The notes below the pieces were generated by a model that searched no databases, was not told the origin of the DNA, and was given only the letters and a program-made list of their open reading frames with translations. This document shows positions 10,963 to 25,358 of a stretch of DNA of 64,000 bases, one piece after another. The number at the start of each line of letters is the position of its first letter. Position 1 is the stretch's first letter. A program made the position numbers and the translations under genes. This DNA is from Paracoccaceae bacterium (lineage in GTDB: Bacteria; Pseudomonadota; Alphaproteobacteria; Rhodobacterales; Rhodobacteraceae). The DNA lies in the NCBI GenBank assembly GCA_965221575.1, contig CBDCSM010000007.1:84358-148357 (forward strand), in the 5' to 3' direction.

Positions 10963-12185
10963 TGCCGCGCATCCGCGAGCTTGACGACATCGGCGGGCGG
11001 CAATGAAATTTCCGCACCCGGAACGCCTCCCGAAAACAGGATCGTGTGCAACTGGCCCAGCCCAACCGCCGCACCGCCGACGAGAGTCGACTGGGAGCCG
11101 AGTCGGGACGCGACAACCTCAACCGGCCTTGACGAACACCTCGACACGAAAGCTCGCACCCGACTCAGCATCTCGTCCCGGCCACCGATCGAGCCTCCCA
11201 GGACGACGCGTTCCGGGTTCGTGAGCGCCGATATTGCCGCCACGGCCCTTGCGACGAGTTGCGCTGTCTCGTCAAGGACAGCCCGTGCCGCGGGGTCGCC
11301 TCTCGTCGAAAGATCGAAGATCGTCGGAACATCGACATCCTGACCGGTCTGCGCCCGGTATCGCGCGCGCATGCCGACGGTCGCGGTAACGCGTTCAAGC
11401 GCACCGACCCTCAGCGATTCCGGCTCGAACGGATCGGCTCCGAAAGGCAGGAACCCGAGTTCGCCGGCCGCACCGAGATGCCCGCGAACGAGTTCACCTC
11501 CGACCATGATGCCGGCACCGATACCGGTTCCAAGCGCCACATAGGCAAGGTCGTCGAAACCGGCGCCAGCGCCAATCCAGCTTTCTCCGATGACGGCCAG
11601 GTTAACATCGTTTTCGATGACGACGTCGATTCCGAGTTCCGCTTCCAGGCTAGCCGCAATGTCATGGGAGGCGAGACCGCGGATGTTCGGCGCCATCAGG
11701 ACACGCCCCGTCGTTTCTTCGGGCACACCGGGCACGCCGACAACCGCGAGACGGACGCGTCCGAAGGAGATGTCATTTTTCTTGGCTGCCTCGCGGCACA
11801 TTCGCGCGATCTGCCTGACGACGGCCATTCCACCTCGTTCGTCCGTCGGTTCGGTCAATGCAGCGGGCACGCGACAGGACAAATCGGCGATGGCGGCGCG
11901 AACCTTGGTGCCGCCAAGATCGACGGTCGCGATGCACGCGGCATCAGGAACGATTTCATAGGTTATGGCGCTGCGTCCCACGTGGCCGCTGGTCCGGCCG
12001 GTGCGGTGGATCCAGCCGTCCCTTTCCAGCAACAGAACGATCTCGGAAATGGTCTGCTTGGACAATCCCGTCTGCCTGGCAATGCTTGCCCGGGAGATTG
12101 GCCCGCAATGCGTGATGTGCTCCATCACCGTACAAAGGGAGAACTGCCTGGAATGGAGTTTCGCGTCGCTCAATGAGTTGTCCAA
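10959..12185 (-). CDS. ROK family transcriptional regulator (NagC/Mlc-like)
   Basis: 408 aa. N-terminal winged HTH (ISRASIARQTGLSKQTISEIV) plus a ROK sugar-kinase-like body (DLGGTK, GIGAGI). Confidence 0.8.
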   Translation of the reverse strand: MDNSLSDAKLHSRQFSLCTVMEHITHCGPISRASIARQTGLSKQTISEIVLLLERDGWIHRTGRTSGHVGRSAITYEIVPDAACIATVDLGGTKVRAAIADLSCRVPAALTEPTDERGGMAVVRQIARMCREAAKKNDISFGRVRLAVVGVPGVPEETTGRVLMAPNIRGLASHDIAASLEAELGIDVVIENDVNLAVIGESWIGAGAGFDDLAYVALGTGIGAGIMVGGELVRGHLGAAGELGFLPFGADPFEPESLRVGALERVTATVGMRARYRAQTGQDVDVPTIFDLSTRGDPAARAVLDETAQLVARAVAAISALTNPERVVLGGSIGGRDEMLSRVRAFVSRCSSRPVEVVASRLGSQSTLVGGAAVGLGQLHTILFSGGVPGAEISLPPADVVKLADARQ

Positions 12186-12255
12186 TTGATTCGTTCGGTT
12201 ACCGAACTAATTATCACGACGTCCGAAACTCGTCAAATTTAGCGTGACATGATAG

Positions 12256-12318
12256 TTCCCGATCAGGAATATTTTTTGGGTCCTTACCCGATTTGGGTGA
12301 CTTGTTCCCGATCGGGAA
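12256..12318. promoter_or_regulatory. Candidate HipB operator set (palindromes TTCCCGATCAGGAA, ACCCGATTTGGGT, TTCCCGATCGGGAA)
   Basis: A perfect 14-bp palindrome lies at 12305-12318. Near-copies lie at 12256-12269 and 12286-12298. All are directly upstream of hipB, analogous to the repeated dyad operators of E. coli hipBA. Confidence 0.5.
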
Positions 12319-12334
12319 TTTGGAAGTCACGATA

Positions 12335-12562
12335 ATGACCTACACGACAGAACAAATCGGCAAGCTGGTTCGGGATACGCGCAAAGCGCTGGGCAGAACC
12401 CAGAAAGACCTTGCGCTCACGTCGGGCACTGGCTTGCGTTTCATCATCGAGCTCGAAAAAGGCAAGCCAACCTGCCAGTTCGGCAAGGCGCTGACGGTCC
12501 TAAAGACACTCGGCATCTCGATCAGTCTGACGCCACCGACAACAGACGAGGCCGACCGATGA
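12335..12562 (+). CDS. hipB: HipB-like XRE-family antitoxin
   Basis: HTH core QKDLALTSGTGLRFIIELEKGK. The ATG at 12335 is preferred over the tracked start at 12293. Its stop overlaps the hipA ATG (ATGA). Confidence 0.8.
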   Translation: MTYTTEQIGKLVRDTRKALGRTQKDLALTSGTGLRFIIELEKGKPTCQFGKALTVLKTLGISISLTPPTTDEADR

Positions 12563-13825
12563 CCAAAACGCTTGATGTGTATCTGCACCGGAAATCTGTC
12601 GGCCGTCTCATTCAGGACGACCATGGACTTTTGCTGTTCGAGTATGACGAGAACTGGTTGAACAGCCCGGATGCAATCGCATTGTCGATTTCGCTACCGT
12701 TGCGGAAACGGCAGTTCAGGGGAAAAGAATGCAAAGGTTTTTTTAGCGGCATTCTGCCTGAAGAATCCAAACGCCGTCAGATCGCCAAAAACCTCGGGAT
12801 CAGCGCCCGCAACGACTATTCAATGCTGGAGCAGATCGGTGGCGAGTGTGCAGGCGCTGTTACCTTCATCCCTGGTGGTCAGCCTTTACCGGACACCGAT
12901 CACCAGTATCGAGAACTGAATGACGTGAATTTGTCACGAATCCTGCGGGAATTGCCTCACCGTCCCCTGATGGCCGGTGAAGCAGGCGTCCGGCTTTCGC
13001 TCGCCGGCGCACAGGACAAAATCGCTGTTCACTTTGAGGAAGGCAGGGTCTCTCTGCCACTTGGCGGCGCGCCCAGCACGCATATCCTGAAACCGGCGAT
13101 CGAACGATTCGAAGGTGTCGTGTTCAACGAAGCAGTTTGCATGAAACTCGCGTCTGCCGTCGGCATTCCCACGTCTGAAGTTGAGTTCCGGCAGGTTGAA
13201 GACATCGACTACCTAATGATCAAACGTTTCGATCGCCGAATCCGCAAGACATCCCCGGGGAACCCGGCTCAAACGCCTGCACCAGGAAGATTTCTGCCAG
13301 GCGATGGGGATTTCATCGGAATCAAAATATCAAAGCGAAGGCGGTCCCGGACTGAAGCAATGCTTTGCTTTGCTGCGCGATGTCTCAAGGATTCCGCTCA
13401 TCGACCTGCAGCAACTACTGGACGCGGTGATTTTCAACGTCCTGATCGGCAACCATGACGCGCACGCCAAGAACTTCTCACTCCCCTATGGAGAAAGAAC
13501 TGAGGGAACGGGGCCTGATGTCCGCCTGGCACCGCTCTACGATCTTGTCAGCACGGTCCATTATCCAGAGTTGACATCAAACATGGCCATGAAGCTTGGC
13601 GGTGAGTATCGATCTGACCGACTTGCAAAAAGACACTTCGAGAAATTTGCCGAGGACGCCGGTCTGGCGAAACCAATTGTCGTTCGACGGGTAACGGAAC
13701 TCGCACAATCCTGCCGCAGTGCACTCATCAATCTGGAAATATCTCACCAGGTCGCCAAAGATGTGATGTCAATGATCGACCGTAGTTGTGAAAAATTCGG
13801 AGAAACATTTTCGGCCCCGCAGTAA
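12559..13825 (+). pseudogene. hipA: HipA-family Ser/Thr kinase toxin, interrupted by a +1 frameshift near 13253-13265
   Basis: ORF 12559-13458 carries the N-terminal HipA couple/oligomerisation region (LSLAGAQDK, KRFDRR). It runs out of frame after ...RRIRKTSPG. The continuation RLKRLHQEDFCQAMGISSESKYQSEGGP...IGNHDAHAKNFSL is in the next frame (ORF 13304-13825). The shift sits in a CCCCGGGGAACCC run. Confidence 0.8.
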
Positions 13826-14011
13826 CGAGGGGCGCAAACGGGTTGCACCTGCTGATTGAGGCGATACCGGCTACCACATGTCTTGAGAAGGCGCTCGCCA
13901 TTCATTGATCCGGGCATGCCGCAAGTCCAGAGCAATTCATGGCAGGAAAACGGCTCGAACAGAGGCACAAGGCGGTTCGAACCACGTTTCCTCAGGCAAA
14001 AAATCAAGGAA

Positions 14012-14085
14012 TGGAGCGGGCGATGGGAATCGAACCCACGTCTTCAGCTTGGAAGGCTGTTGCTCTACCCCTGAGCTACGCCCGC
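14012..14085 (-). tRNA. tRNA-Gly (anticodon UCC)
   Basis: The reverse complement is GCGGGCGTAGCTCAGGGGTAGAGCAACAGCCTTCCAAGCTGAAGACGTGGGTTCGATTCCCATCGCCCGCTCCA. It folds as a cloverleaf with anticodon loop CTTCCAA, T-loop TTCGATT and an encoded CCA. Confidence 0.9.
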
Positions 14086-14829
14086 ATTCTCCAAACGATC
14101 TATGAAATGTTCCTGTCACAGGCAAGGCAATTCGTCCCGGTGCTGATTCCGCGCCGCCACGCAGCGCTCGCTGCGTCCCGTCTTTATCGCGACATGGTCG
14201 GGAATTCCCGGCAACCCGGAAACCACTTGCTTGCGAACCCGGGTTTCTTCTCGTTATCGAGATCGTCGGCGACTTCCGTTCCATTCAATCTGCACGGAGA
14301 TCCTCCAAACCTCGAGTTTTCCCGACATGCCGCCTGTCACGAGTCGACAGAGGTTATGCCCGGGATTCGAATTCGGAATTGCCTCGCTGTCCGGCACGAC
14401 GGCAAGCCGCGCCCTCACGGCGTCTTCGACAATCTCGTCAGCGTGATCACGTCATGGACCGCCCTGCCCCCGGCCTGACGTCGAACCTGATCGTTAAGGC
14501 TGCCGGTTGTCGTCATCGCCGGCCTGCAGTCTCACGCATATTGGCCAACCATGTTTCCGTGCAAGTCATTCCTCATTGTCGTGGACCCGACGGGTGCGGG
14601 TGCAGGCCGCTGCATCAACACCCGAGGTCGGCTCAACGCGGTGCTCAAGTGCGCCAGGCTGTCATCTCATTGTCATAAATCTTTCACGATTGATCATAAA
14701 AAGGCGATAAACCGAAAATTCAGTTGACGAGGTATCCGAATCCGGAAAGAGATTGCGCCGAATGCATTGATCCGGCGAGGTTTAGTGCATATTGTTGAGT
14801 GCGCAATAGCAGCAGAGGACACGAATCCA

Positions 14830-15372
14830 ATAGCACGACGCCCCCACCACGCGCCACCGCAGCGCGACACCGGTCCCCGCGTAAACGAACGCATAATCGC
14901 CCCTGAAATTCGACTTATTGGTCCCGACGGTCAAAACGTCGGAGTTGTTCATCCCGAACGAGGAATTGAACTCGCGCACGAGTCGGGCCTGGACCTTGTC
15001 GAAATTTCGCCTACCGCCAGCCCTCCCGTTTGCAAGGTCATGGACTACGGAAAGTTCAAGTACGAACGGCAAAAACGGGAATCGGAAGCCCGAAAAAAGC
15101 AGAAAACCATCGAGGTCAAAGAGGTCAAGTTTCGTCCGAACACTGACAGCCATGACTTCGACGTCAAGATGCGCAACGTGATGCGGTTTCTCTCGAACGG
15201 GGACAAGGTCAAGGTTACGATGCGATTCCGGGGACGTGAAATGGCTCACCAGAATCTTGGCCTCGCCGTTCTCGACCGGGTTGCAGAGACGGTCGGTCTG
15301 GCAGGCAAGGTTGAGATCATGCCGAAGCTGGAGGGACGGCAGATGGTCATGGTGATCGGACCTAGCAAGTAG
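14830..15372 (+). CDS. infC: Translation initiation factor IF-3
   Basis: Conserved IF3 sequence starts at [22 protein letters not shown]. An in-frame ATA at 14830 lies 10 nt after GAGGA, giving 180 aa. The tracked TTG at 14767 would add 21 non-conserved residues. Confidence 0.85.
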
Positions 15373-15993
15373 GTCGTGATTTGCCCGTTTCGCCGCGCCA
15401 CAGGCGGCAAACGCAATGACATGGCACCGAGGCACCGTTTCCGGTTTCTGATTTGTGCATAACCGGCCCCGCATCCAGCGGCCGTCGCACGGAACCAGAA
15501 CTAACGAGAACAAACCTAACTTGCGGCACATGCCTGGCTCAACCGTGTGCGCGAGGAGGAGCTGCACGAAATCCGTTTGGGCCCGCGCCCTCGGCGCCGT
15601 CTCAAGGAGGCGCCTGACACCATGCGGTGACACAGGCCGAACTTCAAAAGGGAAATCCGCTACCGCCGTATGGCCATCCGTATGACCAAGGGCACGGAAA
15701 TCACGAAACAGCCGCCCCCTTTGCCCCGCCCGGCCGACAACAACTCGGGAAACCAATCGAGAATCTGAAGTGTCAGCCCGTTGCCGGCACCTCAATTCCA
15801 TTTCCTTGATCTGAACCCCCGCTGGTTATTCCCCTGCCCTCATTGACGTTTGTTTCCGCAGACGCGGCCGACCCTTTCCTCCGTCGCCCATTGGTTCAAG
15901 CGGTACGCGTCCTTTTTCGGCGAAATACATTTCGAGGAGTTTCGGCTGAATTGACGATTGATTGCCGTATCCATGGAGAATAGACCTGCGCGC

Positions 15994-16341
15994 ATGGACG
16001 AATTTTCCGGTCGACAGTGGCATGACATGGGAGGTCAGGACTCGGGGCCCGTTTCCGGCGATGAACACGAATATGCGTTCTGGGAAAAGCGCGTTGATGC
16101 GCTCATGGTTATCACGAGCCGAAAAGGTCTGTTCACCGTGGACCAGCTTCGCCGCGTGCTGGAAGAGTTGGGCGAAAACGCTTTCGAGACCATGAGTTAC
16201 TACGAACGCTGGGTATTCGCGGTCAACCGGGCACTGATTGAAACCGGCGTCTATTCGACCGAAGAGCTAGCCAGGAAACTGTCGGAGGTCCGGGAAAGGG
16301 GATCGACCTATGGCGAATGCTGCCAAGCTGAACCGCGGTGA
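15994..16341 (+). CDS. Nitrile hydratase-family beta subunit, N-terminal half (stand-alone ORF)
   Basis: WHDMGG...YAFWEKRVDALMVI...SYYERWVFAV matches the N-terminal helical domain of NHase beta. The start is ambiguous between 15973 and 15994. The ORF ends 32 nt after the next ORF begins. Confidence 0.7.
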   Translation: MDEFSGRQWHDMGGQDSGPVSGDEHEYAFWEKRVDALMVITSRKGLFTVDQLRRVLEELGENAFETMSYYERWVFAVNRALIETGVYSTEELARKLSEVRERGSTYGECCQAEPR

Positions 16342-16615
16342 CAAGGTGCGCGTCCGGGCATTGGTTCCGCCCGGCCATGTCCGCACTCCCTGGTATCTTC
16401 GTGGGAAGAACGGAGTCGTCGAACGCCCGCTCGGTTGCACAATGAACCCCGAACAGCTTGCCTACGGACTGACATCCGGCGACGTCGAACTGTTGCGCGT
16501 ACGATTCACGATGCGCGAGATCTGGGGCGAAGATTGCGAATGCCCCGACGATACGCTTGATGCGGAGATTTTCGCGCATTGGCTTGAACGGATCGAATGG
16601 TCCGATGCTGCCTGA
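16310..16615 (+). CDS. Nitrile hydratase-family beta subunit, C-terminal half (stand-alone ORF)
   Basis: LNRGDKVRVRAL..GHVRTPWYLRGKNGVV...LLRVRFTMREIWGE matches the C-terminal beta-barrel domain of NHase beta. It has its own SD (AAAGGGGA) upstream of the ATG. Confidence 0.7.
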   Translation: MANAAKLNRGDKVRVRALVPPGHVRTPWYLRGKNGVVERPLGCTMNPEQLAYGLTSGDVELLRVRFTMREIWGEDCECPDDTLDAEIFAHWLERIEWSDAA

Positions 16616-17267
16616 ACCGGAACAACCGCACGGACCGGTATCGGAGGATGAGCATCATCATTCCGAACATGTTGATGAAGATTCTCCGTTAACCTACTGG
16701 CAGAACATGGAAATATCTGTACGGGAGCTTCTTGTCGAAAAAGGCGTGATCACCCCGGGCGAAATTACCGCGACAATCGAAGACATGGACCGGAGAACTC
16801 CGGCCAACGGTGCACGAATGGTCGCACGCGCCTGGGTCGATGACGACTTCCGCGAGAGATTGCTCGCGGATGCGAGTGCCGCCATGGCGGAAATGGGATT
16901 CGAACCCGGCGGGCTCCGCCTGATTGCCGTCGAAAACACCCGGGACATCCACAATGTCATCGTTTGTACCCTGTGTTCCTGCTACCCCCGGAACCTGCTT
17001 GGCCTGCCGCCGGACTGGTACAAACAGCGGGCGTACCGCTCTCGTCTCGTCAAATCGCCGCGTGCGACGCTCGAGGAGTTTGGACTCGAAATTCCCGGCG
17101 ATGTAACGGTGCGCGTCCACGACAGCACCGCAGACATGCGCTACATTGTCATTCCGGCACGTCCGGACGGGACACAGGGTCTCTCTGAATCAGAGTTGGC
17201 GGGGCTGGTAACCCGCGATTCCATGATCGGTGTTGCACTCGCGAACGAGCCGTCGGAAGAGCGTTGA
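16605..17267 (+). CDS. Nitrile hydratase-family alpha subunit, Co-type metal site
   Basis: Metal-binding claw VCTLCSCYP (the Co-type T/Y variant) sits in a typical alpha-subunit context. The ATG at 16605 overlaps the end of the preceding ORF. The N-terminal tail is acidic and His-rich (SEDEHHHSEHVDED). Confidence 0.85.
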   Translation: MLPEPEQPHGPVSEDEHHHSEHVDEDSPLTYWQNMEISVRELLVEKGVITPGEITATIEDMDRRTPANGARMVARAWVDDDFRERLLADASAAMAEMGFEPGGLRLIAVENTRDIHNVIVCTLCSCYPRNLLGLPPDWYKQRAYRSRLVKSPRATLEEFGLEIPGDVTVRVHDSTADMRYIVIPARPDGTQGLSESELAGLVTRDSMIGVALANEPSEER

Positions 17268-18172
17268 TGCTGAGATGGGGCGACCTGACACCGTTCGCCC
17301 GCGGTGCGACCCTCATGCTCGGCGCGATCTTCACCTTTTCGATCATGGATGCGGTCGCGAAGTTCCTGACCGGAAGCTACCACCCGGTACAGGTCGTCTG
17401 GGCGCGATACACGTTTCAGTTCGTCTTCGTGTTCCTGATTGCGGCACCGAGACTCCGCACGCTGCTCAGAACGAAGTACCCGCGGCTACAGCTGGTGCGG
17501 TCCGCGTTCCTCTTCGGGGCGACCGTGTGCTTTTTCCTTTCTCTTCCGCATCTCAAGCTTGTCACAGTTATCGCGATTTTCGAAGTCTCGCCTCTCGTGA
17601 TCTGTCTTTTCGCGTTCTTTTTTCTCGGCGAGCCAGTCGGTTGGCGGCGCTGGGCCGGTGTTGCATGTGGTCTGGTCGGGGCCTTGATCATCATCAGGCC
17701 TGCCGGCGATTTCTTTACGCCAGCGGCCTTGCTGCCCCTCATGTCCGCGACTCTCTTTGCGGCATACGCGGTCTCGACGCGATTTCTTGGCCAGGCCGAA
17801 AACCCCTGGACGAGTTTCCTGTACACCGCCCTGATCGGGACCATAGGCGCCAATCTCTGCCTTCCGTTTTTCTGGACCACTCCAGAGCCGACCGATGTCA
17901 TGTTCATGGCAATTCTCGGAGCGGGAGGCGGAATTGGTCACCTCATGTTGATCCGCGCGCTCGTCCAGGCGGACGCCTCAGCCCTCTCCCTCTTCACCTA
18001 TTGCGGGCTCATCTACAGCGCGATACTCGGATACTTCGTATTCTCCGAAGTCCCCGACGTGTTCACGGTCGTTGGATCGGTCTTTATCGTCTCGGCGGGA
18101 ATTTTCGTTTGGTATCGAGAAAACCAGGTCGCTGCACGAGATAAGCGGAACAAGAGACTATCGGAGGCCTGA
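17267..18172 (+). CDS. EamA/DMT family transporter
   Basis: About 300 aa and about 10 TM, with a duplicated EamA-like pattern. Its ATG overlaps the NHase alpha stop (TGATG). Confidence 0.8.
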   Translation: MLRWGDLTPFARGATLMLGAIFTFSIMDAVAKFLTGSYHPVQVVWARYTFQFVFVFLIAAPRLRTLLRTKYPRLQLVRSAFLFGATVCFFLSLPHLKLVTVIAIFEVSPLVICLFAFFFLGEPVGWRRWAGVACGLVGALIIIRPAGDFFTPAALLPLMSATLFAAYAVSTRFLGQAENPWTSFLYTALIGTIGANLCLPFFWTTPEPTDVMFMAILGAGGGIGHLMLIRALVQADASALSLFTYCGLIYSAILGYFVFSEVPDVFTVVGSVFIVSAGIFVWYRENQVAARDKRNKRLSEA

Positions 18173-18328
18173 ACCACCTTGGCCTGCCATTTCCTTCGGG
18201 ACATCCGCGTCGAAATTTCCGGTTAGGGAAGGTCTGCCTGGGCGCGCAAGAACGCGTGAGCCCGAACATGTTCGGCGCCGCGGACATGATTCGGCCGACG
18301 CCGAGGCGCCGGCCGATTCGCGGGTGTG

Positions 18329-19423
18329 TCATAAACACTCTGCAAGTGCTGTCGCAAGATTGCGAATCAACTGCGGATAAAGCGCCGGGCCAAGCTCGAG
18401 GCCTGAACCGAGCGGATCGAGTATGCCTGTATTGGCGTCGGTCCCGTCCATTACGGTATGCACCAAGCCCTCGTTGAACTGGGGCTCGGCCAGGACACAA
18501 TCGATACCCTCGTCGTGGATGAGATCCTGAATTTCTGCAATTCTCGCGGGGCTCGGGTCCGATGCGTCACCCAGCGAAATGGCGCCGGAAGCCTGGAGAC
18601 CGAAGGACACCTCGAAATACTGATAGGCATCGTGGAAGACGACAAACCGCCCGTCCCGTACCGGTTCCAGAATGCCATGGACCTCGGATACCAACTCCTC
18701 CAACTCGGCACGCGCCGCCGCGGCGTTGGCGAAGTAGGTTCCGGCATTGCCGGGATCGGCGGAGGAGAGCTGTGCAGCGATAAGGTTCAGCCAGGTGCTC
18801 GCGTTTTCCGGCGAGAGCCACGCGTGCGGGTCATGTTCGCCATGAGCGTGGCCGTGTTCGTCACGGGCGTTGTCGTCGTGCTCATCCTCGTGCGCATGCT
18901 CGGCATGCTCCTCGGTCTCGTCATGTTCTTCGTGCTCGTCCTCATGGGCATGCTCTTCGTCCTCGTCTTCATGGGCATGCTCGTCGTGCCCGTCGTCATC
19001 GGCATGTTCTTCGTGATCATGCTCGTGGCCGTGTTCGCCCTCTTCCTCGTGCATGTGGGGTCCGAACAACGCGCCTTCACGGAAGTCGAACAGGATCGTG
19101 CCATCCGCGTCCAGAAATGCCGTCACGACCGCGTCGCCTGCAAGCGTTTCAATCGCACCCTCCAACCATGGCGTCAGATCCTCACCTATCCAGAACACCA
19201 GGTCCGCGTCCTGCAACGCGGCGGCTTCAGAGGGGCGTAGGCTGTACTCATGGGGTGACGCGCCTGCCTGGATGATCAGGTTCGGCGTGCCGAGACCCTC
19301 CATCACTCGGGCTACCAACGAATGCACGGGTGCTATATCAACGGCAACGTTAGGGACGTCCCCCATCGCGGTACTGCCCATCAATGTCGCCGTGAGCGAG
19401 ACGGGAATGAGTTTTCTGGACAT
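18329..19423 (-). CDS. znuA: Zinc ABC transporter substrate-binding protein with very long His/Asp/Glu-rich loop
   Basis: 364 aa with a cluster A-I SBP pattern (SPHEYSLRPS, HDAYQYF). Lies next to zur-znuCB. Confidence 0.85.
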   Translation of the reverse strand: MSRKLIPVSLTATLMGSTAMGDVPNVAVDIAPVHSLVARVMEGLGTPNLIIQAGASPHEYSLRPSEAAALQDADLVFWIGEDLTPWLEGAIETLAGDAVVTAFLDADGTILFDFREGALFGPHMHEEEGEHGHEHDHEEHADDDGHDEHAHEDEDEEHAHEDEHEEHDETEEHAEHAHEDEHDDNARDEHGHAHGEHDPHAWLSPENASTWLNLIAAQLSSADPGNAGTYFANAAAARAELEELVSEVHGILEPVRDGRFVVFHDAYQYFEVSFGLQASGAISLGDASDPSPARIAEIQDLIHDEGIDCVLAEPQFNEGLVHTVMDGTDANTGILDPLGSGLELGPALYPQLIRNLATALAECL

Positions 19424-19434
19424 CGGATCCTCCG

Positions 19435-19454
19435 TGTGATTTTATAACATTACA
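19435..19454. promoter_or_regulatory. Candidate Zur box (TGTGATTTTATAACATTACA)
   Basis: AT-rich dyad, 16 of 20 positions palindromic, in the divergent znuA / zur-znuCB intergenic region. It resembles the alphaproteobacterial Zur consensus as I recall it (roughly TAATGTTATAACATTA). Confidence 0.5.
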
Positions 19455-19500
19455 AACTGCATAACTGAAATGAAATGACATCACAAGCGAGGTTCGAAGC

Positions 19501-19998
19501 GTGACAGCCAAAAACACGGACCCGGTCGGATTCGCGCCGCACGATCATTCGGCTTGCGTCGACGACGCGATTGCCGCGGCCGAAGCAAGCTGCGAAGCGG
19601 CCAGTCTGCGCTTGACCCCGGTCCGCCGCAAGGTCTTGGAATTTCTCCTCCGGGAGCATCGCGCTCTTGGCGCCTATGAAATCCTTGATCTCCTGCGCGA
19701 GGCGGGATTCGGTTCCCAGCCTCCGGTGGCGTACCGCGCGCTCGAATTCCTGATTGCCCACGGCTTCGTACACAAGCTTGAACGCATGAATGCCTTTGTT
19801 GCCTGTGCCCATCCCGGTCAAACCCATTCGCCAGCCTTCATGATCTGCCGCCTGTGCGAAACCGTGGCCGAAGCTCAATCGGAACCGACCAAGGGTGCCC
19901 TCGAGGCCGCCGCCCGCGCGGCCGGATTCCGGATCGAACGCACCGTTGTGGAAGCCGAAGGCGTATGTCCCGCCTGCGCCACGAAAACCGACCCATGA
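19501..19998 (+). CDS. zur: Fur-family zinc uptake regulator
   Basis: 165 aa with a GTG start. Winged HTH (AYEILDLLREAG), CxxC pairs (CRLC, CPAC), and znu gene context. Confidence 0.8.
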   Translation: MTAKNTDPVGFAPHDHSACVDDAIAAAEASCEAASLRLTPVRRKVLEFLLREHRALGAYEILDLLREAGFGSQPPVAYRALEFLIAHGFVHKLERMNAFVACAHPGQTHSPAFMICRLCETVAEAQSEPTKGALEAAARAAGFRIERTVVEAEGVCPACATKTDP

Positions 19999-20729
19999 GC
20001 CTGGTTTCCGTTGAAGATCTCAGCATCCGCTACGGTGCCCACATGGCATTGCGCAGTGTCAGCCTGTCGATCGAGCCAGGGGAGATCGTTACGATTGTCG
20101 GCCCGAATGGCTCGGGCAAGACCAGCCTCCTGCGCGCCATCGTTGGCGCGACCCAACCCGACAGCGGGACGGTCAAGTGCCGACCCGGCTTGCGAATCGG
20201 CTACGTGCCACAGAAGTTGCACGTCGATCCGAACTTGCCGATCACGGTGAGGCGGTTCCTGAGGCTCACCGATCGCGTCTCGCTGGATGCCTGCAAGGTT
20301 GCCCTTGAAGATGCGGGCGTGCCAAACATCTCGGAACGCCAGATGTCACATCTTTCGGGCGGGCAGTTTCAGCGCGTGCTTTTGGCCCGCGCCCTGATCA
20401 ACCGGCCAGAGATCCTGTTGCTTGACGAGGCGACTCAGGGCCTCGACCAACCGGGTTCGGCGGCTTTCTTTCGCCAGATCGAGACCGTGCGGCAGGAAAC
20501 CGGCTGCGCGGTTCTGATGATCAGCCATGAACTACACGTTGTCATGAGCGCGTCGGACCGGGTGATTTGCCTCAACGGCCATATCTGCTGCGAAGGGACG
20601 CCCGCGGTGGTCGCCTCGGCCCCGGAATACCGTATGCTCTTTGGCGCAGGAACGGGCGGTGCCCTGGCACTCTATCGTCACGAACATGACCACGATCACG
20701 ACGTCCCGTCGACTATGGCTGAGGAATAA
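19995..20729 (+). CDS. znuC: Zinc ABC transporter ATP-binding protein
   Basis: MSLVSVEDLSIRYG..., Walker A GPNGSGKTS, signature LSGGQFQR, Walker B LLLLDEAT. Its ATG overlaps the zur stop (ATGA). Confidence 0.85.
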   Translation: MSLVSVEDLSIRYGAHMALRSVSLSIEPGEIVTIVGPNGSGKTSLLRAIVGATQPDSGTVKCRPGLRIGYVPQKLHVDPNLPITVRRFLRLTDRVSLDACKVALEDAGVPNISERQMSHLSGGQFQRVLLARALINRPEILLLDEATQGLDQPGSAAFFRQIETVRQETGCAVLMISHELHVVMSASDRVICLNGHICCEGTPAVVASAPEYRMLFGAGTGGALALYRHEHDHDHDVPSTMAEE

Positions 20730-21526
20730 TGCTCGACGATTTCATGACGCGCGCGACGTTGGCGGGGATCGGCGTGGCATTCGCAGCGGCCCCACTCGGC
20801 TGCTTCGTGGTCTGGCGCCGCATGGCCTATTTCGGAGAAACAACGGCCCATGCGGCGATTCTGGGCATCGCCATTTCCCTGGCCCTGCAGGCGTCGATCT
20901 TTGCGGGTACGGTGGCGGTGGCGCTTATGATGGCAGTGACGGCGACACTCTTGGCGTGGCGGGGCTTTGCCATGGATACGCTTCTGGGCGTCCTGGCCCA
21001 CTCCTCACTTGCATTCGGACTTGTGGCGGTATCATTCCTGTCCGGCATCCGCGTTGATCTCATGGCTTATCTCTTTGGTGACATCCTGGCTGTGTCGCGC
21101 GTGGACCTTGTCGTGATCTGGGGTGGTGGCGCGCTGGTCATTGCTCTGATCGCCTGGCGCTGGTCAGCGCTCTTGGCCTCGACCCTGAACGAAGAACTGG
21201 CCTATGCCAGCGGGCTCGAACCCCGTCACGAACAACTGATCCTGACGCTGACCCTGGCGATCACCGTTGCCGTGGCAATCAAGGTTGTCGGTGTTCTGCT
21301 TATCGTAGCCATGTTGATCATCCCCGCCGCCGCCGCCAGCGGCCTTGCCCGAACGCCAGAGGCCATGGCCATGATCGCTGGAGCAATCGGCGCCTTCTCG
21401 GCTCTGGCAGGCCTGCGTGCCGCCTATGTGCTTGATACTCCAGCCGGTCCGTCCATCGTTTGCGTAGCCGCGGTAGCGTTTGCCGCCTGCAGCCTGATCG
21501 GAAGAAGCACACGACCCGGTTCGTAA
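20729..21526 (+). CDS. znuB: Zinc ABC transporter permease
   Basis: 265 aa, polytopic, ABC-3 family pattern. Translationally coupled to znuC. Confidence 0.85.
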   Translation: MLDDFMTRATLAGIGVAFAAAPLGCFVVWRRMAYFGETTAHAAILGIAISLALQASIFAGTVAVALMMAVTATLLAWRGFAMDTLLGVLAHSSLAFGLVAVSFLSGIRVDLMAYLFGDILAVSRVDLVVIWGGGALVIALIAWRWSALLASTLNEELAYASGLEPRHEQLILTLTLAITVAVAIKVVGVLLIVAMLIIPAAAASGLARTPEAMAMIAGAIGAFSALAGLRAAYVLDTPAGPSIVCVAAVAFAACSLIGRSTRPGS

Positions 21527-21763
21527 TAGCGTGTGCTCAGCACCCTGACGGGGCCGTCATGCAATGAAACGGGAATCCCAAACGGTTCAAACGCCCGTTA
21601 CCTCAGCGGCACCTGTTCCGGGCAATTCCAACATCCAGAGAATTCAATGCGTGATCAAACCGGGAGACCTGACCCACCTTCCGGCATTTCATTCAGGAGA
21701 AAAACACTCCGCCAGCGTGCCGCCGTGGAACCGTTTCGAGGAATTGATCGTCCTCTTCCGGAA

Positions 21764-22498
21764 CTATTCAACCTGGCGGGCGGCAAGAATTGGGCCGGTC
21801 CTGCCTTCCTGAAGCACAGCGACCAGCACCGCGGAAGGATCTACCTGCCCGGAAAGCTGCTTTTTCTCCTGCCCGTTCCACGTTGCTGCCCGCTTCCACG
21901 AGTCCACGACGTTAGTGTACAGGATCGTTCGTCCCCTGTTTTCGCCTCGTTCGATCTTGATCGTCGCTTCCGGCGTGATTTCAGCCAGGTAAATGCTGCA
22001 GCTGGCCTTGCAGATCTCGCGACCATGCTCCTTCGGTTCAAGACGAATTGTCAATCGGTCGCCTTCCCTCTTCACGACGAACTCGACCGGCTCCGGTTGC
22101 CTGCGGAGGGATTCGATCTTATCCGGAACTCCCCGAATTCGACCGCCCGCGTATTGGGCGACACCGTGCAAGATGATCTGGGGCGTGACCAGCCTGTACG
22201 GACTCATCAGCCGCATGTTGTACGCAGCCTGTCGCGGAGTGAATTCGGCGATCGCGAATTCGTCCTTCCACCCGATATAGTCCCAGTAATCCACATGCAT
22301 TCCGAGAGCGATGACGTCGTCCTGTTTCGCCAGTTCCGTCAGGAATCGATCGGCAGGCGGACAGGACGAACATCCCTGGCTCGTGTACAACTCGACCAGG
22401 ATTGGTCCGGCCAACACGGGGACAGAAGAAATCGCCCAGATACAGGACGTACAGACAATTCCAATCAAGCGCATCATGGCAAATCGACCTATCAACAT
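21764..22498 (-). CDS. DUF1223 family secreted thioredoxin-fold protein
   Basis: Signal peptide followed by ELYTSQGCSSCPPAD, which I recall as the signature of DUF1223. Confidence 0.65.
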   Translation of the reverse strand: MLIGRFAMMRLIGIVCTSCIWAISSVPVLAGPILVELYTSQGCSSCPPADRFLTELAKQDDVIALGMHVDYWDYIGWKDEFAIAEFTPRQAAYNMRLMSPYRLVTPQIILHGVAQYAGGRIRGVPDKIESLRRQPEPVEFVVKREGDRLTIRLEPKEHGREICKASCSIYLAEITPEATIKIERGENRGRTILYTNVVDSWKRAATWNGQEKKQLSGQVDPSAVLVAVLQEGRTGPILAARQVE

Positions 22499-22661
22499 TC
22501 CTTGTCGTGACGCAATTCACGATTAGGCGATCTTCCCACCTGCGAAGAACCTGGTCCAATAAACACCTTGCGAGCCGATTTGATCAGCAGGAATTCGGAT
22601 TGATGCCCGGGGATTCGAATGTTGCGGCAGGTCGCTTCGCCTACGCATTTGAACTTATGCT

Positions 22662-25358
22662 TCAGGATTGACCGACTCCCGCAAGGTTGCGAAGGACAAA
22701 TGGCAGAACTCCACCGTTCCGGACGTAGGAAATCTCGACTTCCGTATCGATACGACACTTGAGGGCAATTTCCCTCCTCTTGCCGTCGGAATACGTGATG
22801 ACCGCCGCGCAGTCCGAACCCGGAGCGAGTTGACCTTCCAGTCCTGTAATCGTGATCGATTCGTCCCCTGTCAGGGAAAGCGAATGTCTCGTGTCACCGC
22901 CGGAAAACTCGAACGGAACCACCCCCATGCCGACCAGGTTGGATCGATGAATCCGCTCGAAGTTCTCGGCGATTACCGCCTTGACTCCCAGGAGCGCGAC
23001 ACCTTTCGCCGCCCAGTCGCGGGATGACCCGGCACCGTACTGGCTTCCCGCAACGACCACCAACGGCGTTCCTGCCGCCGCGTACTCCATGGCGGCGTCG
23101 TAAACCGGCTTTTCCTTTCCGTCGGGCCCTTTCGTGAACCCGCCCTCCACACCGGACAGCATCTCGTTCCTGATGCGGATATTCCCGAAGGTTCCACGAA
23201 CCATGATCTCGTGGTTACCCCGCCGGGAGCCATAGGAATTGAATTCCTTCGGCGGCACCTGCCGTTCGGTCAGGTACGAGCCGGCCGGCGTCGTGTCCCT
23301 GAAGGATCCCGCCGGCGAAATGTGGTCCGTCGTTACCATGTCGCCCAGCATCATGAGAATTCTCGCGTCGTGAACGTCCGAAATCACGCCCGGTTCGGGC
23401 GTGATTCCTTCAAAATACGGAGGTTTCCGCACATAGGTCGAAACCGCCGGCCAGTCATATGTCAGGCTGTCGGTCGTGAGGACTTGGCGCCATCTTTCGT
23501 CCCCGGTGAAGACCTCGGCGTATTTCCTCTCGAACGCCTCGCGGGTTACCGTCCTGTCGACGATTTCGGCAATCTCCGATGTCGCCGGCCAGATATCCTT
23601 GAGAAATACGTCCCTTCCGTCGCCATCCTGCCCGACCGGTTCGCTCGTCAGATCGATCCCGATATCGCCGACAAGCGCGTAGACAACGACAAGCGGCGGG
23701 GATGCCAGGTAGTTTGCCCTGACGTCGGGTGAGATCCTTCCCTCGAAATTTCGGTTGCCAGACAGGACCGAAACGGCGACGAGATCGTTGTCATGGATCG
23801 CCGCGCTGATCTCCTCCTGGATGGGTCCGGAGTTGCCGATACAGGTCGTGCATCCATAACCCACGAGGTTGAACCCGAGCGCGTCCAGATCTTCCTGAAG
23901 CCCCGAAGCCTCGAGATAATCCGAAACGACCTGGGAGCCCGGCGCGAGCGATGTCTTGACCCAGGGCTTGACCTGCAATCCGAGCGCCCTCGCCTTTCTC
24001 GCCACCAGTCCAGCCCCTATCATGACATAGGGGTTCGACGTGTTGGTGCAGGACGTGATCGACGCAATGACCACCTTGCCGGATGAGATGTCATAGTTCT
24101 CGCCGTTGACCGGGACCGTCTTGTCGAGAGGACGCTTGAAATTGCTGGCCATCTCGTTGGCGAAGGCCGACTTCGCCTCGGTCAGAGGGACGAAGTCCTG
24201 CGGACGCCTCGGGCCTGAAATCGCCGGAACGATCGTGCTCATGTCCAGTTCCAGCGTATCCGTATAGATCGGGGAGTATTCCGTTCCCCGCCAGATTCCG
24301 TTTTCCTTGGCGAAGGCCTCGACGAGGGCGATCCCCTCGCGATCACGTCCCGAAACCTCGAGATATCTCAGCGTTTCAGCATCGACGGGAAAAAACCCGC
24401 ACGTGGCCCCGTATTCGGGCGCCATGTTCGCGATCGTCGCACGGTCCGCCAACGGCAACGTGTCCAGACCGTCACCGTAGAACTCGACGAACTTGCCCAC
24501 GACCCCTTTCTCGCGGAGCATCGCGACGACCTTGAGCACCAGGTCCGTGGCAGTCGTTCCTTCAACCATGGTTCCGGTCAGCCGAAACCCGACGACCTCC
24601 GGAATGAGCATCGATACCGGCTGGCCGAGCATTGCGGCTTCGGCCTCGATTCCGCCGACGCCCCAACCCAGTACCGCCAGTCCATTGACCATGGTCGTGT
24701 GAGAATCCGTCCCGACGAGGGTGTCGGGAAACGCGATCCAGGCTCCGTCCGGATCCTTGTCGGTCCAGACCGTCCTTGACAGGTACTCCAGATTGACCTG
24801 GTGGCAGATTCCGGTTCCCGGCGGCACAACCCGAAAATTCTCGAACGCCGCCTGCCCCCATTTCAGGAACGTGTACCTTTCCAGGTTTCGTTCGTATTCG
24901 CGCTCGACATTGACCCTGAATGCACGCGGATTGCCGAATTCGTCGATCATGACCGAATGGTCGATGACGAGATCGACCGGGGTCAGCGGATTGATCTTTT
25001 CCGGATCTCCCCCGAGTTCGATTATTCCGTCGCGCATGGCTGCGAGGTCGACCACGGCCGGTACACCGGTAAAATCCTGCATGAGCACGCGCGCGGGCCG
25101 GTAGGAAATCTCCTTCGGATTCCTGCCGCTGTTCCTGCCCCATTCGGAAAACGCCCGGATATCGTCGGCATCGACGCTGGTCCCGTCCTCGAACCGGAGC
25201 ATGTTCTCGAGCACGACGTTGAGGACAGCCGGAAGCCCGGAAAATTCGCCCAGGCCGGCCTTTTCGGCGGCCCGGATCGAGTAGTAATCGATGTGACCGT
25301 GCCCGGTATCCAAAGATGACCTGGTTCCGAAACTGTTGCGACCGACCGCGACAACCAT
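22662..25358 (-). CDS. acnA: Aconitate hydratase A
   Basis: Full-length AcnA/IRP-type sequence (DLVIDHSV, GTDSHT, CTTCIGNSG, SGNRNFEGR). The start at 25358 or 25394 gives about 900 aa. The tracked 972-aa start looks over-extended. Confidence 0.9.
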   Translation of the reverse strand: MVVAVGRNSFGTRSSLDTGHGHIDYYSIRAAEKAGLGEFSGLPAVLNVVLENMLRFEDGTSVDADDIRAFSEWGRNSGRNPKEISYRPARVLMQDFTGVPAVVDLAAMRDGIIELGGDPEKINPLTPVDLVIDHSVMIDEFGNPRAFRVNVEREYERNLERYTFLKWGQAAFENFRVVPPGTGICHQVNLEYLSRTVWTDKDPDGAWIAFPDTLVGTDSHTTMVNGLAVLGWGVGGIEAEAAMLGQPVSMLIPEVVGFRLTGTMVEGTTATDLVLKVVAMLREKGVVGKFVEFYGDGLDTLPLADRATIANMAPEYGATCGFFPVDAETLRYLEVSGRDREGIALVEAFAKENGIWRGTEYSPIYTDTLELDMSTIVPAISGPRRPQDFVPLTEAKSAFANEMASNFKRPLDKTVPVNGENYDISSGKVVIASITSCTNTSNPYVMIGAGLVARKARALGLQVKPWVKTSLAPGSQVVSDYLEASGLQEDLDALGFNLVGYGCTTCIGNSGPIQEEISAAIHDNDLVAVSVLSGNRNFEGRISPDVRANYLASPPLVVVYALVGDIGIDLTSEPVGQDGDGRDVFLKDIWPATSEIAEIVDRTVTREAFERKYAEVFTGDERWRQVLTTDSLTYDWPAVSTYVRKPPYFEGITPEPGVISDVHDARILMMLGDMVTTDHISPAGSFRDTTPAGSYLTERQVPPKEFNSYGSRRGNHEIMVRGTFGNIRIRNEMLSGVEGGFTKGPDGKEKPVYDAAMEYAAAGTPLVVVAGSQYGAGSSRDWAAKGVALLGVKAVIAENFERIHRSNLVGMGVVPFEFSGGDTRHSLSLTGDESITITGLEGQLAPGSDCAAVITYSDGKRREIALKCRIDTEVEISYVRNGGVLPFVLRNLAGVGQS

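What the first reader, a model, noticed from the sequence alone, without database searches (positions are those of the whole stretch)
15973..17267. Three-ORF nitrile-hydratase-family enzyme with a split beta subunit (thiocyanate hydrolase / ToyJKL-like layout)
The usual single beta subunit is encoded as two ORFs. The N-terminal helical half is at 15994-16341. The C-terminal barrel half is at 16310-16615, with its own SD and a 32-nt overlap in a different frame. A Co-type alpha subunit follows (VCTLCSCYP). A beta-N, beta-C, alpha gene order with comparable sizes is the known arrangement of thiocyanate hydrolase (scnB-scnA-scnC). The three-subunit toyocamycin nitrile hydratase likewise has the beta subunit split into two proteins. 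The substrate may therefore not be a simple nitrile.
Basis: partly seen in the sequence, partly recalled or inferred. Interest (0 to 1): 0.65.

Follow-up and report, generated by a model that had tools for sequence, protein, structure and literature searches.

The report
Three-gene split-beta cobalt nitrile hydratase
This is a real cobalt-type nitrile hydratase whose beta subunit is encoded as two separate genes, an arrangement already known from Streptomyces enzymes and thiocyanate hydrolase and conserved across many marine Rhodobacterales, but its natural substrate is unknown.

Summary
Window 15973-17267 holds three translationally coupled ORFs:
- the N-terminal half of nitrile hydratase (NHase) beta (bN);
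- the C-terminal SH3-like half of beta (bC);
- a Co-type alpha subunit carrying VCTLCSCYP.

An EamA transporter gene overlaps the alpha stop codon.

The split is not an assembly artefact.
- All 80 related genome loci (Roseovarius, Jannaschia, Marimonas, Yoonia and others) encode bN and bC in different reading frames upstream of alpha.
- Four of those loci have a cupin gene between the two halves.
- Each ORF is under purifying selection (dN/dS 0.11-0.23).

In a small neighbour-joining tree, alpha falls outside the classical two-subunit NHases that have an accessory protein. It groups with other split-beta enzymes and with thiocyanate-hydrolase gamma, and shares CSCYPR and a beta-N Arg-Arg pair with them. 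It is not a thiocyanate hydrolase by the curated model (194 bits, cutoff 291). It is not in a toyocamycin gene cluster.

No accessory, amidase or cobalt-transporter gene was found in the 64-kb window.

The three-subunit layout is already published for Streptomyces canus AnhDEA, ToyJKL and thiocyanate hydrolase. This is therefore a new member of a known kind, of modest interest. The open point is its substrate in marine roseobacters.

The parts
15806..15972 (+). Conserved upstream region, putatively the promoter and 5' leader of the operon
   Evidence: this stretch aligns with the closest relatives (L001 from 15806, L002 from 15862, L003 from 15916, at 75-86% identity). The spacer 15381-15805 after infC does not align. 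No sigma-70-like site was found and no Rfam family. The assignment is inferred.
15973..16341 (+). bN: the N-terminal helical half of NHase beta (122 aa from ATG 15973; alternative starts are ATG 15994 and TTG 15958)
   Evidence: Pfam PF21006, E 3.6e-20. TIGR03888 positions 3-101 of 226. 1432 relatives. Motifs HDMGG, TVDQLRR and SYYERW are conserved in the family. dN/dS 0.17-0.23. Weak match to the accessory-protein model TIGR03889 (21 bits, cutoff 46) and to a Thioclava accessory protein.
16310..16615 (+). bC: the C-terminal SH3-like barrel half of NHase beta (101 aa). It overlaps bN by 32 nt in another frame.
   Evidence: Pfam PF02211, E 1.8e-19. TIGR03888 positions 135-225. 417 stand-alone relatives; the 120 listed are 86-110 aa. 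843 relatives in the 50% representative library, and most of the best 150 are short. GHVRTPWYLRG motif. dN/dS 0.11-0.17.
16605..17267 (+). Alpha subunit, Co-type (220 aa). Its start overlaps the bC stop by 11 nt. The N-terminus is rich in His and acidic residues.
   Evidence: PF02979, E 7.5e-78. TIGR01323 scores 253.6 bits against a cutoff of 249.85. The best solved relatives are Co-NHases 1V29, 2DPP and 3QXE at about 1e-60. dN/dS 0.16-0.22.
16965..16982 (+). Metal-binding and active-site motif CTLCSC (alpha Cys121, Cys124, Ser125, Cys126), followed by Tyr-Pro-Arg129
   Evidence: Read directly from the sequence. CTLCSCYPRN is present in 79 of 81 family members. Thr and Tyr in this motif mark Co-type enzymes (established knowledge of NHases).
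17267..18172 (+). EamA-family (DMT) transporter. Its ATG overlaps the alpha TGA (TGATG).
   Evidence: PF00892, E 5.8e-24, two domains. The gene sits directly downstream of alpha in 32 of 81 loci. dN/dS 0.10-0.12. A functional link to the hydratase is inferred from the coupling only.

Best explanation
The region encodes a functional cobalt-type nitrile-hydratase-family enzyme built from three polypeptides.

**Shown from sequence**
- Alpha carries the Co-binding motif Cys-Thr-Leu-Cys-Ser-Cys.
- The usual beta subunit is supplied by two independent gene products, bN and bC.
- bN has the N-terminal HDMGG motif, the Arg60-Arg61 pair and the Tyr76-Tyr77-x-x-Trp80 segment. These align with the beta residues that line the pocket and hold the active-site cysteines in solved NHases.
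- bC supplies the second conserved arginine, Arg25 in GHVRTP.
- The four ORFs overlap at their junctions, which suggests a translationally coupled operon of bN, bC, alpha and an EamA transporter.
- The split is ancestral and conserved in marine Rhodobacterales and other Alphaproteobacteria.

**Inferred**
- By analogy with Streptomyces canus AnhD2E2A2 and ToyJKL, the enzyme is probably an (alpha-bN-bC)2 hexamer.
- It would hydrate a nitrile to its amide at a Co(III) centre whose cysteines are oxidised to sulfinate and sulfenate.
- No accessory gene is present. Cobalt insertion is therefore probably activator-independent or helped by bN, as shown for AnhD, possibly with the His-rich alpha N-terminus.
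- The physiological substrate is unknown. The Arg-rich pocket (alpha Arg129, bN Arg60 and Arg61) is shared with thiocyanate hydrolase and other split enzymes. This hints at a polar, anionic or heteroatom-linked nitrile rather than a small aliphatic one.
- The EamA protein may move the substrate or the product.
For: **Domain identity.** Pfam and NCBIfam assign the three ORFs to beta-N, beta-C and alpha. Solved-structure matches agree.

**The split is real.**
- 417 stand-alone bC and 1432 bN relatives were found.
- In 80 of 80 genome loci the order is bN-bC-alpha with the two halves in different frames. In most loci the bN stop lies within about 30 nt of the bC start.
- A Cupin_2 gene sits between bN and bC in four loci.
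- dN/dS is 0.11-0.23 in each frame.

**Catalytic motifs.** They are invariant across 81 members.

**Lineage.**
- A neighbour-joining tree separates five classical alphas at 99% bootstrap from all split-beta alphas plus an scnC-type protein.
- The split and SCNase-type group shares the CSCYPR signature, a one-residue deletion, and a double Arg in bN.
- HMM scores are intermediate. TIGR01323 gives 253.6 bits, against 278-288 for classical alphas. TIGR03887 gives 194 bits, against 155-183 for classical alphas and 357 for scnC.

**No helper genes.** Tblastn with single example proteins found no accessory, amidase or cobalt-transporter gene in the 64-kb window. The only accessory-like signal lies in bN itself.

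**Precedent.** Streptomyces canus NHase has the order anhD-anhE-anhA and no activator, and AnhD acts as chaperone (PMC7329996). A Streptomyces plasmid shows the same three-gene layout.
Against: - No activity, metal content or quaternary structure was measured. Everything about catalysis rests on homology.
- The tree is neighbour-joining on 24 sequences, with few classical representatives and no ToyJ or AnhA sequence. Midpoint rooting is arbitrary.
- Alpha passes the NHase-alpha equivalog cutoff only narrowly.
- bC is closer to classical Co-NHase beta (52 bits) than to SCNase alpha (32 bits). The subunits therefore do not all point the same way.
- The neighbourhood is housekeeping (infC, zinc-uptake genes, DUF1223, aconitase) and gives no clue to the substrate.
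- An accessory gene could lie elsewhere in the genome.
- The chaperone role of bN and the transport role of EamA are analogies only.
Confidence: 0.82

Rival explanations
1. The two beta ORFs are an artefact or a pseudogene. A single beta gene would have been broken by a 1-nt sequencing or assembly error or by a recent frameshift mutation.
For: The two ORFs overlap by 32 nt in different frames. A hipA-like gene 3 kb upstream is split into two overlapping ORFs, so frame breaks do occur in this window.
Against: All 80 related loci from different species keep bN and bC as separate frames. Junction spacing varies, and four loci have a whole cupin gene between the halves. Hundreds of stand-alone bC proteins exist. 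dN/dS is 0.11-0.23 in each frame. The linker region of a normal beta (model positions 102-134) is absent rather than frame-shifted.
Confidence: 0.01
2. It is a thiocyanate hydrolase (scnB-scnA-scnC type) that converts SCN- to carbonyl sulfide and ammonia.
For: The three-gene layout is the same. The best solved-structure match of bN is SCNase beta (42.9 bits against 37.2 for NHase beta). Alpha has Arg after CSCYP and bN has the Arg-Arg pair, as in the scnC-type locus. NCBI names a homologue 'ScnB-like protein'. Alpha groups on the SCNase side of the tree.
Against: Alpha scores 194 bits on TIGR03887 against a cutoff of 291, while a genuine scnC-type protein scores 357. Alpha lacks the insertion seen in the scnC-type sequence. 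Solved SCNase gamma is a much weaker match (150 bits) than Co-NHase alphas (about 209 bits). bC is closer to NHase beta. The Arg residues are shared by all split-beta NHases, including the Streptomyces type, so they are not specific to SCNase.
Confidence: 0.05
3. bN is not a structural beta half but the accessory protein (self-subunit-swapping chaperone). The mature enzyme would be alpha plus bC only, or alpha plus a beta encoded elsewhere.
For: Accessory proteins are beta-N homologues of similar size. bN gives a weak hit to TIGR03889 (E 2.5e-4) and to the Thioclava and PCC 7002 accessory proteins. AnhD of Streptomyces canus has chaperone activity.
Against: bN keeps the beta-specific HDMGG N-terminus, the conserved Arg and the YYERW pocket segment. 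The aligned accessory proteins lack the HDxGG N-terminus, and one of the three also lacks the conserved Arg. Its Pfam beta-N score is 72.6 bits, against 21 bits for the accessory model whose cutoff is 46. AnhD is both a subunit and a chaperone in the purified AnhD2E2A2 enzyme.
Confidence: 0.07
4. A programmed ribosomal frameshift in the 32-nt overlap joins bN and bC into one full-length beta.
For: The overlap lies in a shifted frame. In most loci bC is in the +1 frame relative to bN, and none of the 80 loci has the two in the same frame.
Against: bC has its own ATG and Shine-Dalgarno sequence. Junctions range from a 32-nt overlap to a gap of more than 20 nt, and about 500-770 bp is inserted between the halves in five loci, a whole gene in each. 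No conserved slippery site is possible across these variants. Some loci use the other frame offset.
Confidence: 0.02

Closest known systems
Streptomyces canus CGMCC 13662 three-subunit Co-NHase (AnhD-AnhE-AnhA; PMC7329996)
   Same: Same gene order: beta-N half, beta-C half, alpha. Co-type alpha. No activator gene. The beta-N half resembles accessory proteins. A Streptomyces plasmid locus with this layout has an alpha about 51-56% identical to the window's and shares CSCYPR and RVHDS.
   Different: The host is from a different phylum. In the tree the Streptomyces alpha groups with the Rhizobium, Azospirillum and SCNase-type branch, not directly with the Rhodobacterales clade. The AnhDEA sequence itself was not available for comparison. 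The Streptomyces locus is followed by aquaporin and HoxN cobalt-transporter genes, whereas this one is followed by EamA. The known substrates of ScNHase are neonicotinoids, and it has almost no activity on indole-3-acetonitrile.
Toyocamycin nitrile hydratase ToyJKL (Streptomyces rimosus)
   Same: A three-subunit Co-NHase with the beta subunit encoded as two proteins. It is described as a three-subunit NHase whose alpha alone can mature (cited).
   Different: ToyJKL is part of a 7-deazapurine biosynthetic cluster. Here the neighbours are infC, tRNA-Gly, EamA, zinc-uptake genes, DUF1223 and aconitase. From my own recollection the gene order is alpha first (toyJ-K-L). No sequence comparison was possible.
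Thiocyanate hydrolase (Thiobacillus thioparus SCNase; PDB 2DD4)
   Same: Three subunits corresponding to beta-N, beta-C and alpha. Shares the Arg after CSCYP and the Arg-Arg pair in the beta-N homologue. The best solved-structure match of bN is SCNase beta.
   Different: Alpha fails the SCNase-gamma equivalog model (194 bits against a cutoff of 291) and lacks the gamma insertion. SCNase has a dedicated activator according to the review read.
Classical two-subunit Co-type NHases with accessory protein (P. putida 3QXE, B. smithii 1V29, P. thermophila 1IRE, R. rhodochrous type)
   Same: Same fold and same CTLCSC Co site. Same conserved beta Arg and Tyr residues. Alpha is 44-49% identical.
   Different: These have a single beta of about 220-230 aa and a separate accessory gene. 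Their alpha has CSCYPW or CSCYPF and an extra residue before GP. Their beta has an EPxF insert and a single Arg. They separate from the split group at 99% bootstrap.
Eukaryotic fused beta-alpha NHase (Monosiga brevicollis)
   Same: No activator is known, and a His-rich segment lies next to alpha. The window's alpha has a His/acidic N-terminus.
   Different: It has the opposite topology: a fusion instead of a split.

Membership tests
Nitrile hydratase family (Co-type) | Alpha subunit with the metal-binding motif C-(T/S)-L-C-S-C. Thr and a following Tyr mark Co-type enzymes. | tested here: met
   VCTLCSCYP at 16962-16988. PF02979 E 7.5e-78. TIGR01323 253.6 bits, at or above the cutoff of 249.85.
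Nitrile hydratase family (Co-type) | Beta subunit providing two conserved arginines and the YYxxW pocket segment | tested here: met
   bN Arg60 and SYYERW, and bC Arg25 in GHVRTP, align with classical beta sequences and are conserved in 81 loci. Neither half alone reaches the full-length TIGR03888 cutoff of 152 bits (62.2 and 59.7 bits).
Nitrile hydratase family (Co-type) | Hydration of a nitrile to an amide, Co(III) bound, cysteines oxidised | not testable with these tools
   Needs protein expression, metal analysis and assays.
Three-subunit (split-beta) NHase, AnhDEA/ToyJKL kind | Beta encoded as two separate polypeptides (beta-N and beta-C) | tested here: met
Three-subunit (split-beta) NHase, AnhDEA/ToyJKL kind | Gene order beta-N, beta-C, alpha (as anhD-anhE-anhA) | tested here: met
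   Window coordinates. The same order holds in 80 of 80 loci and in Streptomyces sp. NBC_01176. The published order is quoted.
Three-subunit (split-beta) NHase, AnhDEA/ToyJKL kind | No separate activator or accessory gene | tested here: met
   Four accessory proteins used as tblastn queries hit only bN in the 64-kb window. The only TIGR03889 signal is in bN. The rest of the genome was not visible.
Three-subunit (split-beta) NHase, AnhDEA/ToyJKL kind | Alpha related to alphas of other split enzymes rather than to classical ones | tested here: met
   Neighbour-joining tree, with 99% support for the split from classical alphas. Shared signatures. ToyJ and AnhA themselves were not in the tree.
Thiocyanate hydrolase (SCNase) | Gamma subunit reaching the TIGR03887 equivalog cutoff | tested here: not met
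   194.1 bits against a cutoff of 291.45. The Azospirillum ramasamyi scnC control scores 356.8.
Thiocyanate hydrolase (SCNase) | Hydrolysis of thiocyanate to COS and ammonia | not testable with these tools
   Enzyme assay needed.
Toyocamycin NHase (ToyJKL) | Located in a 7-deazapurine (toyocamycin/sangivamycin) biosynthetic cluster | tested here: not met
   Neighbours within about 6 kb are hipA, tRNA-Gly, infC, EamA, znuA/zur/znuCB, DUF1223 and aconitase. Conserved neighbours in the 80 loci are an acyltransferase, DUF1223, aconitase, purB and infC.

The most novel reading that the evidence does not exclude
The split-beta enzyme may be the widespread nitrile hydratase of marine roseobacters. 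That trait was reported as gained in marine Rhodobacteraceae and is routinely read as the indole-3-acetonitrile step of auxin synthesis.

On this reading the enzyme is not an indole-3-acetonitrile hydratase. It would belong to the SCNase/three-subunit lineage with an arginine-lined pocket. It would act on a polar or heteroatom-linked nitrile, such as an N-cyano, S-cyano or cyano-deazapurine compound or an acidic nitrile. bN would serve as a built-in cobalt-insertion chaperone, and EamA would move the substrate or product.
Probability: 0.2. Interest if true: 0.55.

Novelty: new member of a known kind. Interest (0 to 1): 0.3.

Why it matters
Nitrile hydratase was reported in 62% of marine and 0% of non-marine Rhodobacteraceae (PMC5437341). 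It is used to infer bacterial auxin production for phytoplankton. All 80 closest genome loci to this alpha are Rhodobacterales-type genomes that carry the split-beta form. The closest characterised enzyme of that layout has almost no activity on indole-3-acetonitrile. If the split form is the common marine one, that pathway inference needs an enzymological check. For biocatalysis, activator-independent three-subunit Co-NHases are easier to express, and this clade offers many uncharacterised variants. For annotation, the locus shows that 'truncated' or 'SH3-like domain' beta genes in these genomes are intact subunits and not pseudogenes.

Tried and rejected
- **Regulatory RNA.** An Rfam scan of 12000-20000 found only tRNA-Gly and no riboswitch upstream of the operon.
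- **Promoters and terminators.** The sigma-70 and terminator scan of 15300-18400 gave nothing above the shuffled expectation.
- **Pathway partners.** I searched the window and the 80 loci for amidase, HoxN, CbtA/B, HupE, aquaporin and accessory-protein genes. There were no hits except accessory-like similarity within bN.
- **Neighbourhood clustering.** Clustering of neighbours gave only housekeeping synteny, so there is no substrate clue.
- **Literature on the SCNase pocket.** Searches for SCNase pocket residues found no open paper with residue-level detail. The statement that SCNase uses the Arg after the Cys motif rests on my recollection only.
- **Missing comparators.** ToyJ/K/L and AnhD/E/A sequences could not be obtained with the tools, so they were not compared directly.
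- **Structure prediction.** I did not run it. Only single chains can be modelled, and alpha is already about 45-50% identical to solved NHases.
- **Rejected readings.** Frameshift artefact, programmed frameshift, thiocyanate hydrolase and accessory-only bN were considered and rejected (see the rival explanations).
Full report
**Observation**

ORF listing and the raw sequence show three same-strand ORFs at the stated place.
- bN runs 15973-16341. In-frame starts lie at TTG 15958, ATG 15973 and ATG 15994.
- bC runs 16310-16615. Its ATG is preceded by AGGGGA, and it overlaps bN by 32 nt in another frame.
- Alpha runs from ATG 16605 to 17267 and overlaps the bC stop by 11 nt.
- A fourth ORF, an EamA-family transporter, starts at 17267 inside the alpha stop codon (TGATG).

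Pfam assigns the ORFs as follows.

| ORF | Pfam family | E-value |
|---|---|---|
| bN | NHase_beta_N | 3.6e-20 |
| bC | NHase_beta_C | 1.8e-19 |
| alpha | NHase_alpha | 7.5e-78 |
| fourth ORF | EamA | 5.8e-24 |

On the NCBIfam beta model of 226 positions, bN covers 3-101 and bC covers 135-225. The two ORFs are the two halves of one beta, and the linker is missing. Alpha carries VCTLCSCYP at 16962-16988.

**Is the split real?**

- A search with bC found 417 relatives. The 120 listed are 86-110 aa with only the beta-C domain, and many come from named Roseovarius and Thalassovita genomes.
- A search with bN found 1432 relatives.
- A genome scan with alpha returned 80 loci from different species, mostly Rhodobacterales: Roseovarius, Jannaschia, Marimonas, Yoonia, Neptunicoccus, Planktotalea and others.
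- In all 80 loci, tblastn finds bN, then bC, then alpha, with bN and bC never in the same frame.
- In most loci the bN stop lies within about 30 nt of the bC start. In several loci the bN frame runs on past the usual stop, and five loci carry an inserted gene.
- In L035, L039, L048 and L056 a 165-186 aa Cupin_2 gene sits between the two halves. In L050 a 258-aa ORF sits there. The two halves are therefore independent genes.
- Against the three closest loci (about 87-92% nucleotide identity), dN/dS is 0.17-0.23 for bN, 0.11-0.17 for bC, 0.16-0.22 for alpha and 0.10-0.12 for eamA. Each frame is therefore under purifying selection.
- In the exhaustive 50%-representative library, bC has 843 relatives. 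Most of the best 150 are 85-130 aa. Named members come from Stellaceae, Magnetovibrio and Rhodospirillaceae.

An assembly error, a recent pseudogene and a programmed frameshift are all excluded for practical purposes.

**What kind of NHase is it?**

Alpha's best solved relatives are Co-type NHases: 1V29, 2DPP and 3QXE at about 205-209 bits. Fe-type enzymes score about 169 bits and SCNase gamma about 150 bits. It passes the NHase-alpha equivalog model narrowly and fails the SCNase-gamma model.

| Alpha | TIGR01323 (NHase alpha, cutoff 249.85) | TIGR03887 (SCNase gamma, cutoff 291.45) |
|---|---|---|
| Window | 253.6 | 194.1 |
| Classical controls | 278-288 | 155-183 |
| Other split-beta alphas | 248-267 | 218-231 |
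| scnC-annotated control | 211 | 357 |

The split-type alphas are thus intermediate between the two models.

Comparators were fetched from annotated plasmids.
- Rhodococcus sp. M8, Sulfitobacter pontiacus, Thioclava and Picosynechococcus PCC 7002 have the classical full-length beta plus an accessory protein. Ensifer adhaerens has the full-length beta, but no accessory gene is annotated next to it.
- Streptomyces sp. NBC_01176 has the same beta-N, beta-C, alpha layout, followed by aquaporin and a HoxN cobalt transporter.
- Rhizobium leguminosarum and Azospirillum brasilense have the order beta-C, alpha, beta-N.
- Azospirillum ramasamyi has an scnC-type gene.

A neighbour-joining tree of 24 alphas separates the five classical sequences from everything else with 99% bootstrap. 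The Rhodobacterales clade plus a double-beta-N variant has 86% support. Streptomyces, Rhizobium, Azospirillum and scnC form the sister group at 87%.

Alignments show derived characters shared by the split and scnC sequences.
- Alpha has CSCYPR where classical sequences have CSCYPW or CSCYPF. It also has a one-residue deletion before the conserved GP, and RVHDS(T/N)A in the Rhodobacterales, double-beta-N and Streptomyces alphas.
- bN lacks the classical EPxF insert and has an Arg-Arg pair where classical betas have a single Arg.
- All of these motifs, plus HDMGG, (S/T)YYERW and GH(V/I)R(T/A)PxYLRG, are essentially invariant in the 81 family members.
- The subunits do not agree fully. bN's best solved match is SCNase beta, while bC's is P. 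putida NHase beta.

**Mechanism**

The metal ligands, the two beta arginines and the beta tyrosine segment that define catalytically competent NHases are all present. Everything beyond that is inferred.
- The enzyme is most likely a Co(III) hydratase assembled from alpha, bN and bC.
- By analogy with Streptomyces canus AnhD2E2A2, it is probably a dimer of heterotrimers.
- No accessory protein, amidase or cobalt transporter is detectable in the 64-kb window by tblastn. The only accessory-like similarity is within bN.
- In S. canus the beta-N subunit AnhD doubles as metal and subunit-swapping chaperone, and cobalt can enter without an activator. The same is a reasonable hypothesis here.
- Alpha subunits of this family begin with a His/Asp-rich tail, MPHDHHDH...SPSGHPYR. 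The window and its three closest relatives carry a diverged form, MLPEPEQPHGPVSEDEHHHSEH. Such tails also occur in the classical alphas I aligned, so this is not distinctive.

**Substrate**

The genomic context is conserved housekeeping synteny: purB, infC, a lipid A acyltransferase, DUF1223 and aconitase. It gives no metabolic clue. An EamA transporter directly follows alpha in 32 of 81 loci, including this one. The arginine-rich pocket is shared with SCNase and with the Streptomyces-type enzymes. The characterised S. canus enzyme hydrates N-cyano neonicotinoids but hardly any indole-3-acetonitrile. This makes a polar or heteroatom-linked nitrile plausible but unproven.

**Comparison with what is known**

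- Three-subunit NHases with a split beta are published: ToyJKL, S. canus AnhDEA with the identical gene order and no activator, and thiocyanate hydrolase.
- Databases already annotate these genes as 'nitrile hydratase subunit alpha', 'SH3-like domain-containing protein' and 'ScnB-like protein'.
- Marron et al. noted a 'truncated' beta in Roseobacter sp. CCS2. This is probably the same split.
- A Roseobacter NHase that was expressed functionally was chosen with a putative accessory protein and is listed with one alpha and one beta accession, so it is probably the classical type.
- I found no biochemical study of the Rhodobacterales split enzyme in the searchable library.
- NHase was reported as a trait gained in marine Rhodobacteraceae and linked to auxin synthesis from indole-3-acetonitrile.

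**Verdict**

It is an intact member of an already described architecture that is common in marine Alphaproteobacteria. It is not a thiocyanate hydrolase by the curated model and not a toyocamycin-pathway enzyme by context. Interest is modest at 0.3. The worthwhile open question is the physiological substrate of this large marine clade, and whether its routine reading as an auxin-pathway enzyme is justified.

Noticed in passing
window 12559-13458 and 13304-13825 (+): A hipA-like toxin kinase gene is split into two overlapping ORFs. The first holds the HipA N-terminal domain plus HipA_C positions 1-75. The second holds HipA_C positions 87-212. This is a frameshifted pseudogene or a sequencing error.
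   Followed up: partly
window 14012-14085 (-): tRNA-Gly (anticodon TCC) lies between the hipA remnant and infC (14767-15372).
   Followed up: yes
window 15381-15805: The roughly 430-bp spacer between infC and the operon does not align even with the closest relatives (87-94% identical in infC). The last 57-167 bp before bN do align. No Rfam family or promoter-like site was found there.
   Followed up: partly
L035 5169-5666, L039 5192-5698, L048 5183-5743, L056 5115-5627: A Cupin_2 gene (165-186 aa, with an HRHH...EEW motif) is inserted between bN and bC and abuts both. This gives a four-gene bN-cupin-bC-alpha unit. Its role is unknown; it could be a metal-binding helper or a second enzyme.
   Followed up: partly
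L050 4965-5741: A 258-aa ORF sits between bN and bC in this locus. By eye it looks lysozyme- or chitinase-like with a peptidoglycan-binding tail. It was not scanned.
   Followed up: no
L081 5001-6486 and L082 5001-6473 (metagenome contigs): A related variant has a 200-aa protein made of two tandem beta-N domains, followed by a 95-aa beta-C and a 199-aa alpha. It lies in an operon with a thiamine-diphosphate enzyme upstream and 5-oxoprolinase-like genes (CT_C_D, CT_A_B, LamB_YcsF) downstream. About 95 such roughly 200-aa proteins were among the 120 best bN hits.
   Followed up: partly
proteins P0291 (316 aa) and P0256 (310 aa): These are natural beta-C-alpha fusion proteins. P0291 (Tara Oceans and others) keeps CTLCSCYPK. 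P0256 has lost all three cysteines (VSSLGGSYPR), so it may be a catalytically dead relative.
   Followed up: no
L091 2073-3411 (Rhizobium leguminosarum plasmid) and L085 2649-3902 (Azospirillum brasilense): Here the split-beta NHase has a different gene order: beta-C, alpha, beta-N. In Rhizobium it lies next to the cobalt transporter genes cbtA and cbtB. Both halves are annotated only as 'SH3-like domain-containing protein'.
   Followed up: partly
L084 2018-3660 (Azospirillum ramasamyi plasmid): An scnC-type gamma (357 bits on TIGR03887) is preceded by a single 283-aa protein spanning both beta halves. This is a thiocyanate-hydrolase-like enzyme with the beta halves fused, next to a HupE/UreJ gene.
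   Followed up: no
L003, near 5735 (equivalent to window 16339-16341): In this close relative the bN stop TGA is TGG, so the bN frame runs on for about 220 nt over bC. This is either a natural C-terminal extension or an error in a long-read MAG.
   Followed up: no
window 16605-16694, and the alpha N-termini of the 80 loci: Alpha subunits of the family begin with a conserved His/Asp-rich tail (MPHDHHDH...LSPSGHPYRxDxD). The window and L001-L003 carry a diverged acidic version, which is also His-rich in the window (EDEHHHSEH).
   Followed up: partly
window 18329-25580: Downstream lie a zinc-uptake cluster (znuA with a long His/Asp/Glu-rich loop, a Fur-family regulator, an ABC ATPase-like ORF not scanned and a znuB permease), a DUF1223 gene and a 972-aa aconitase. 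DUF1223 and aconitase are syntenic with the NHase genes in many of the 80 loci.
   Followed up: partly
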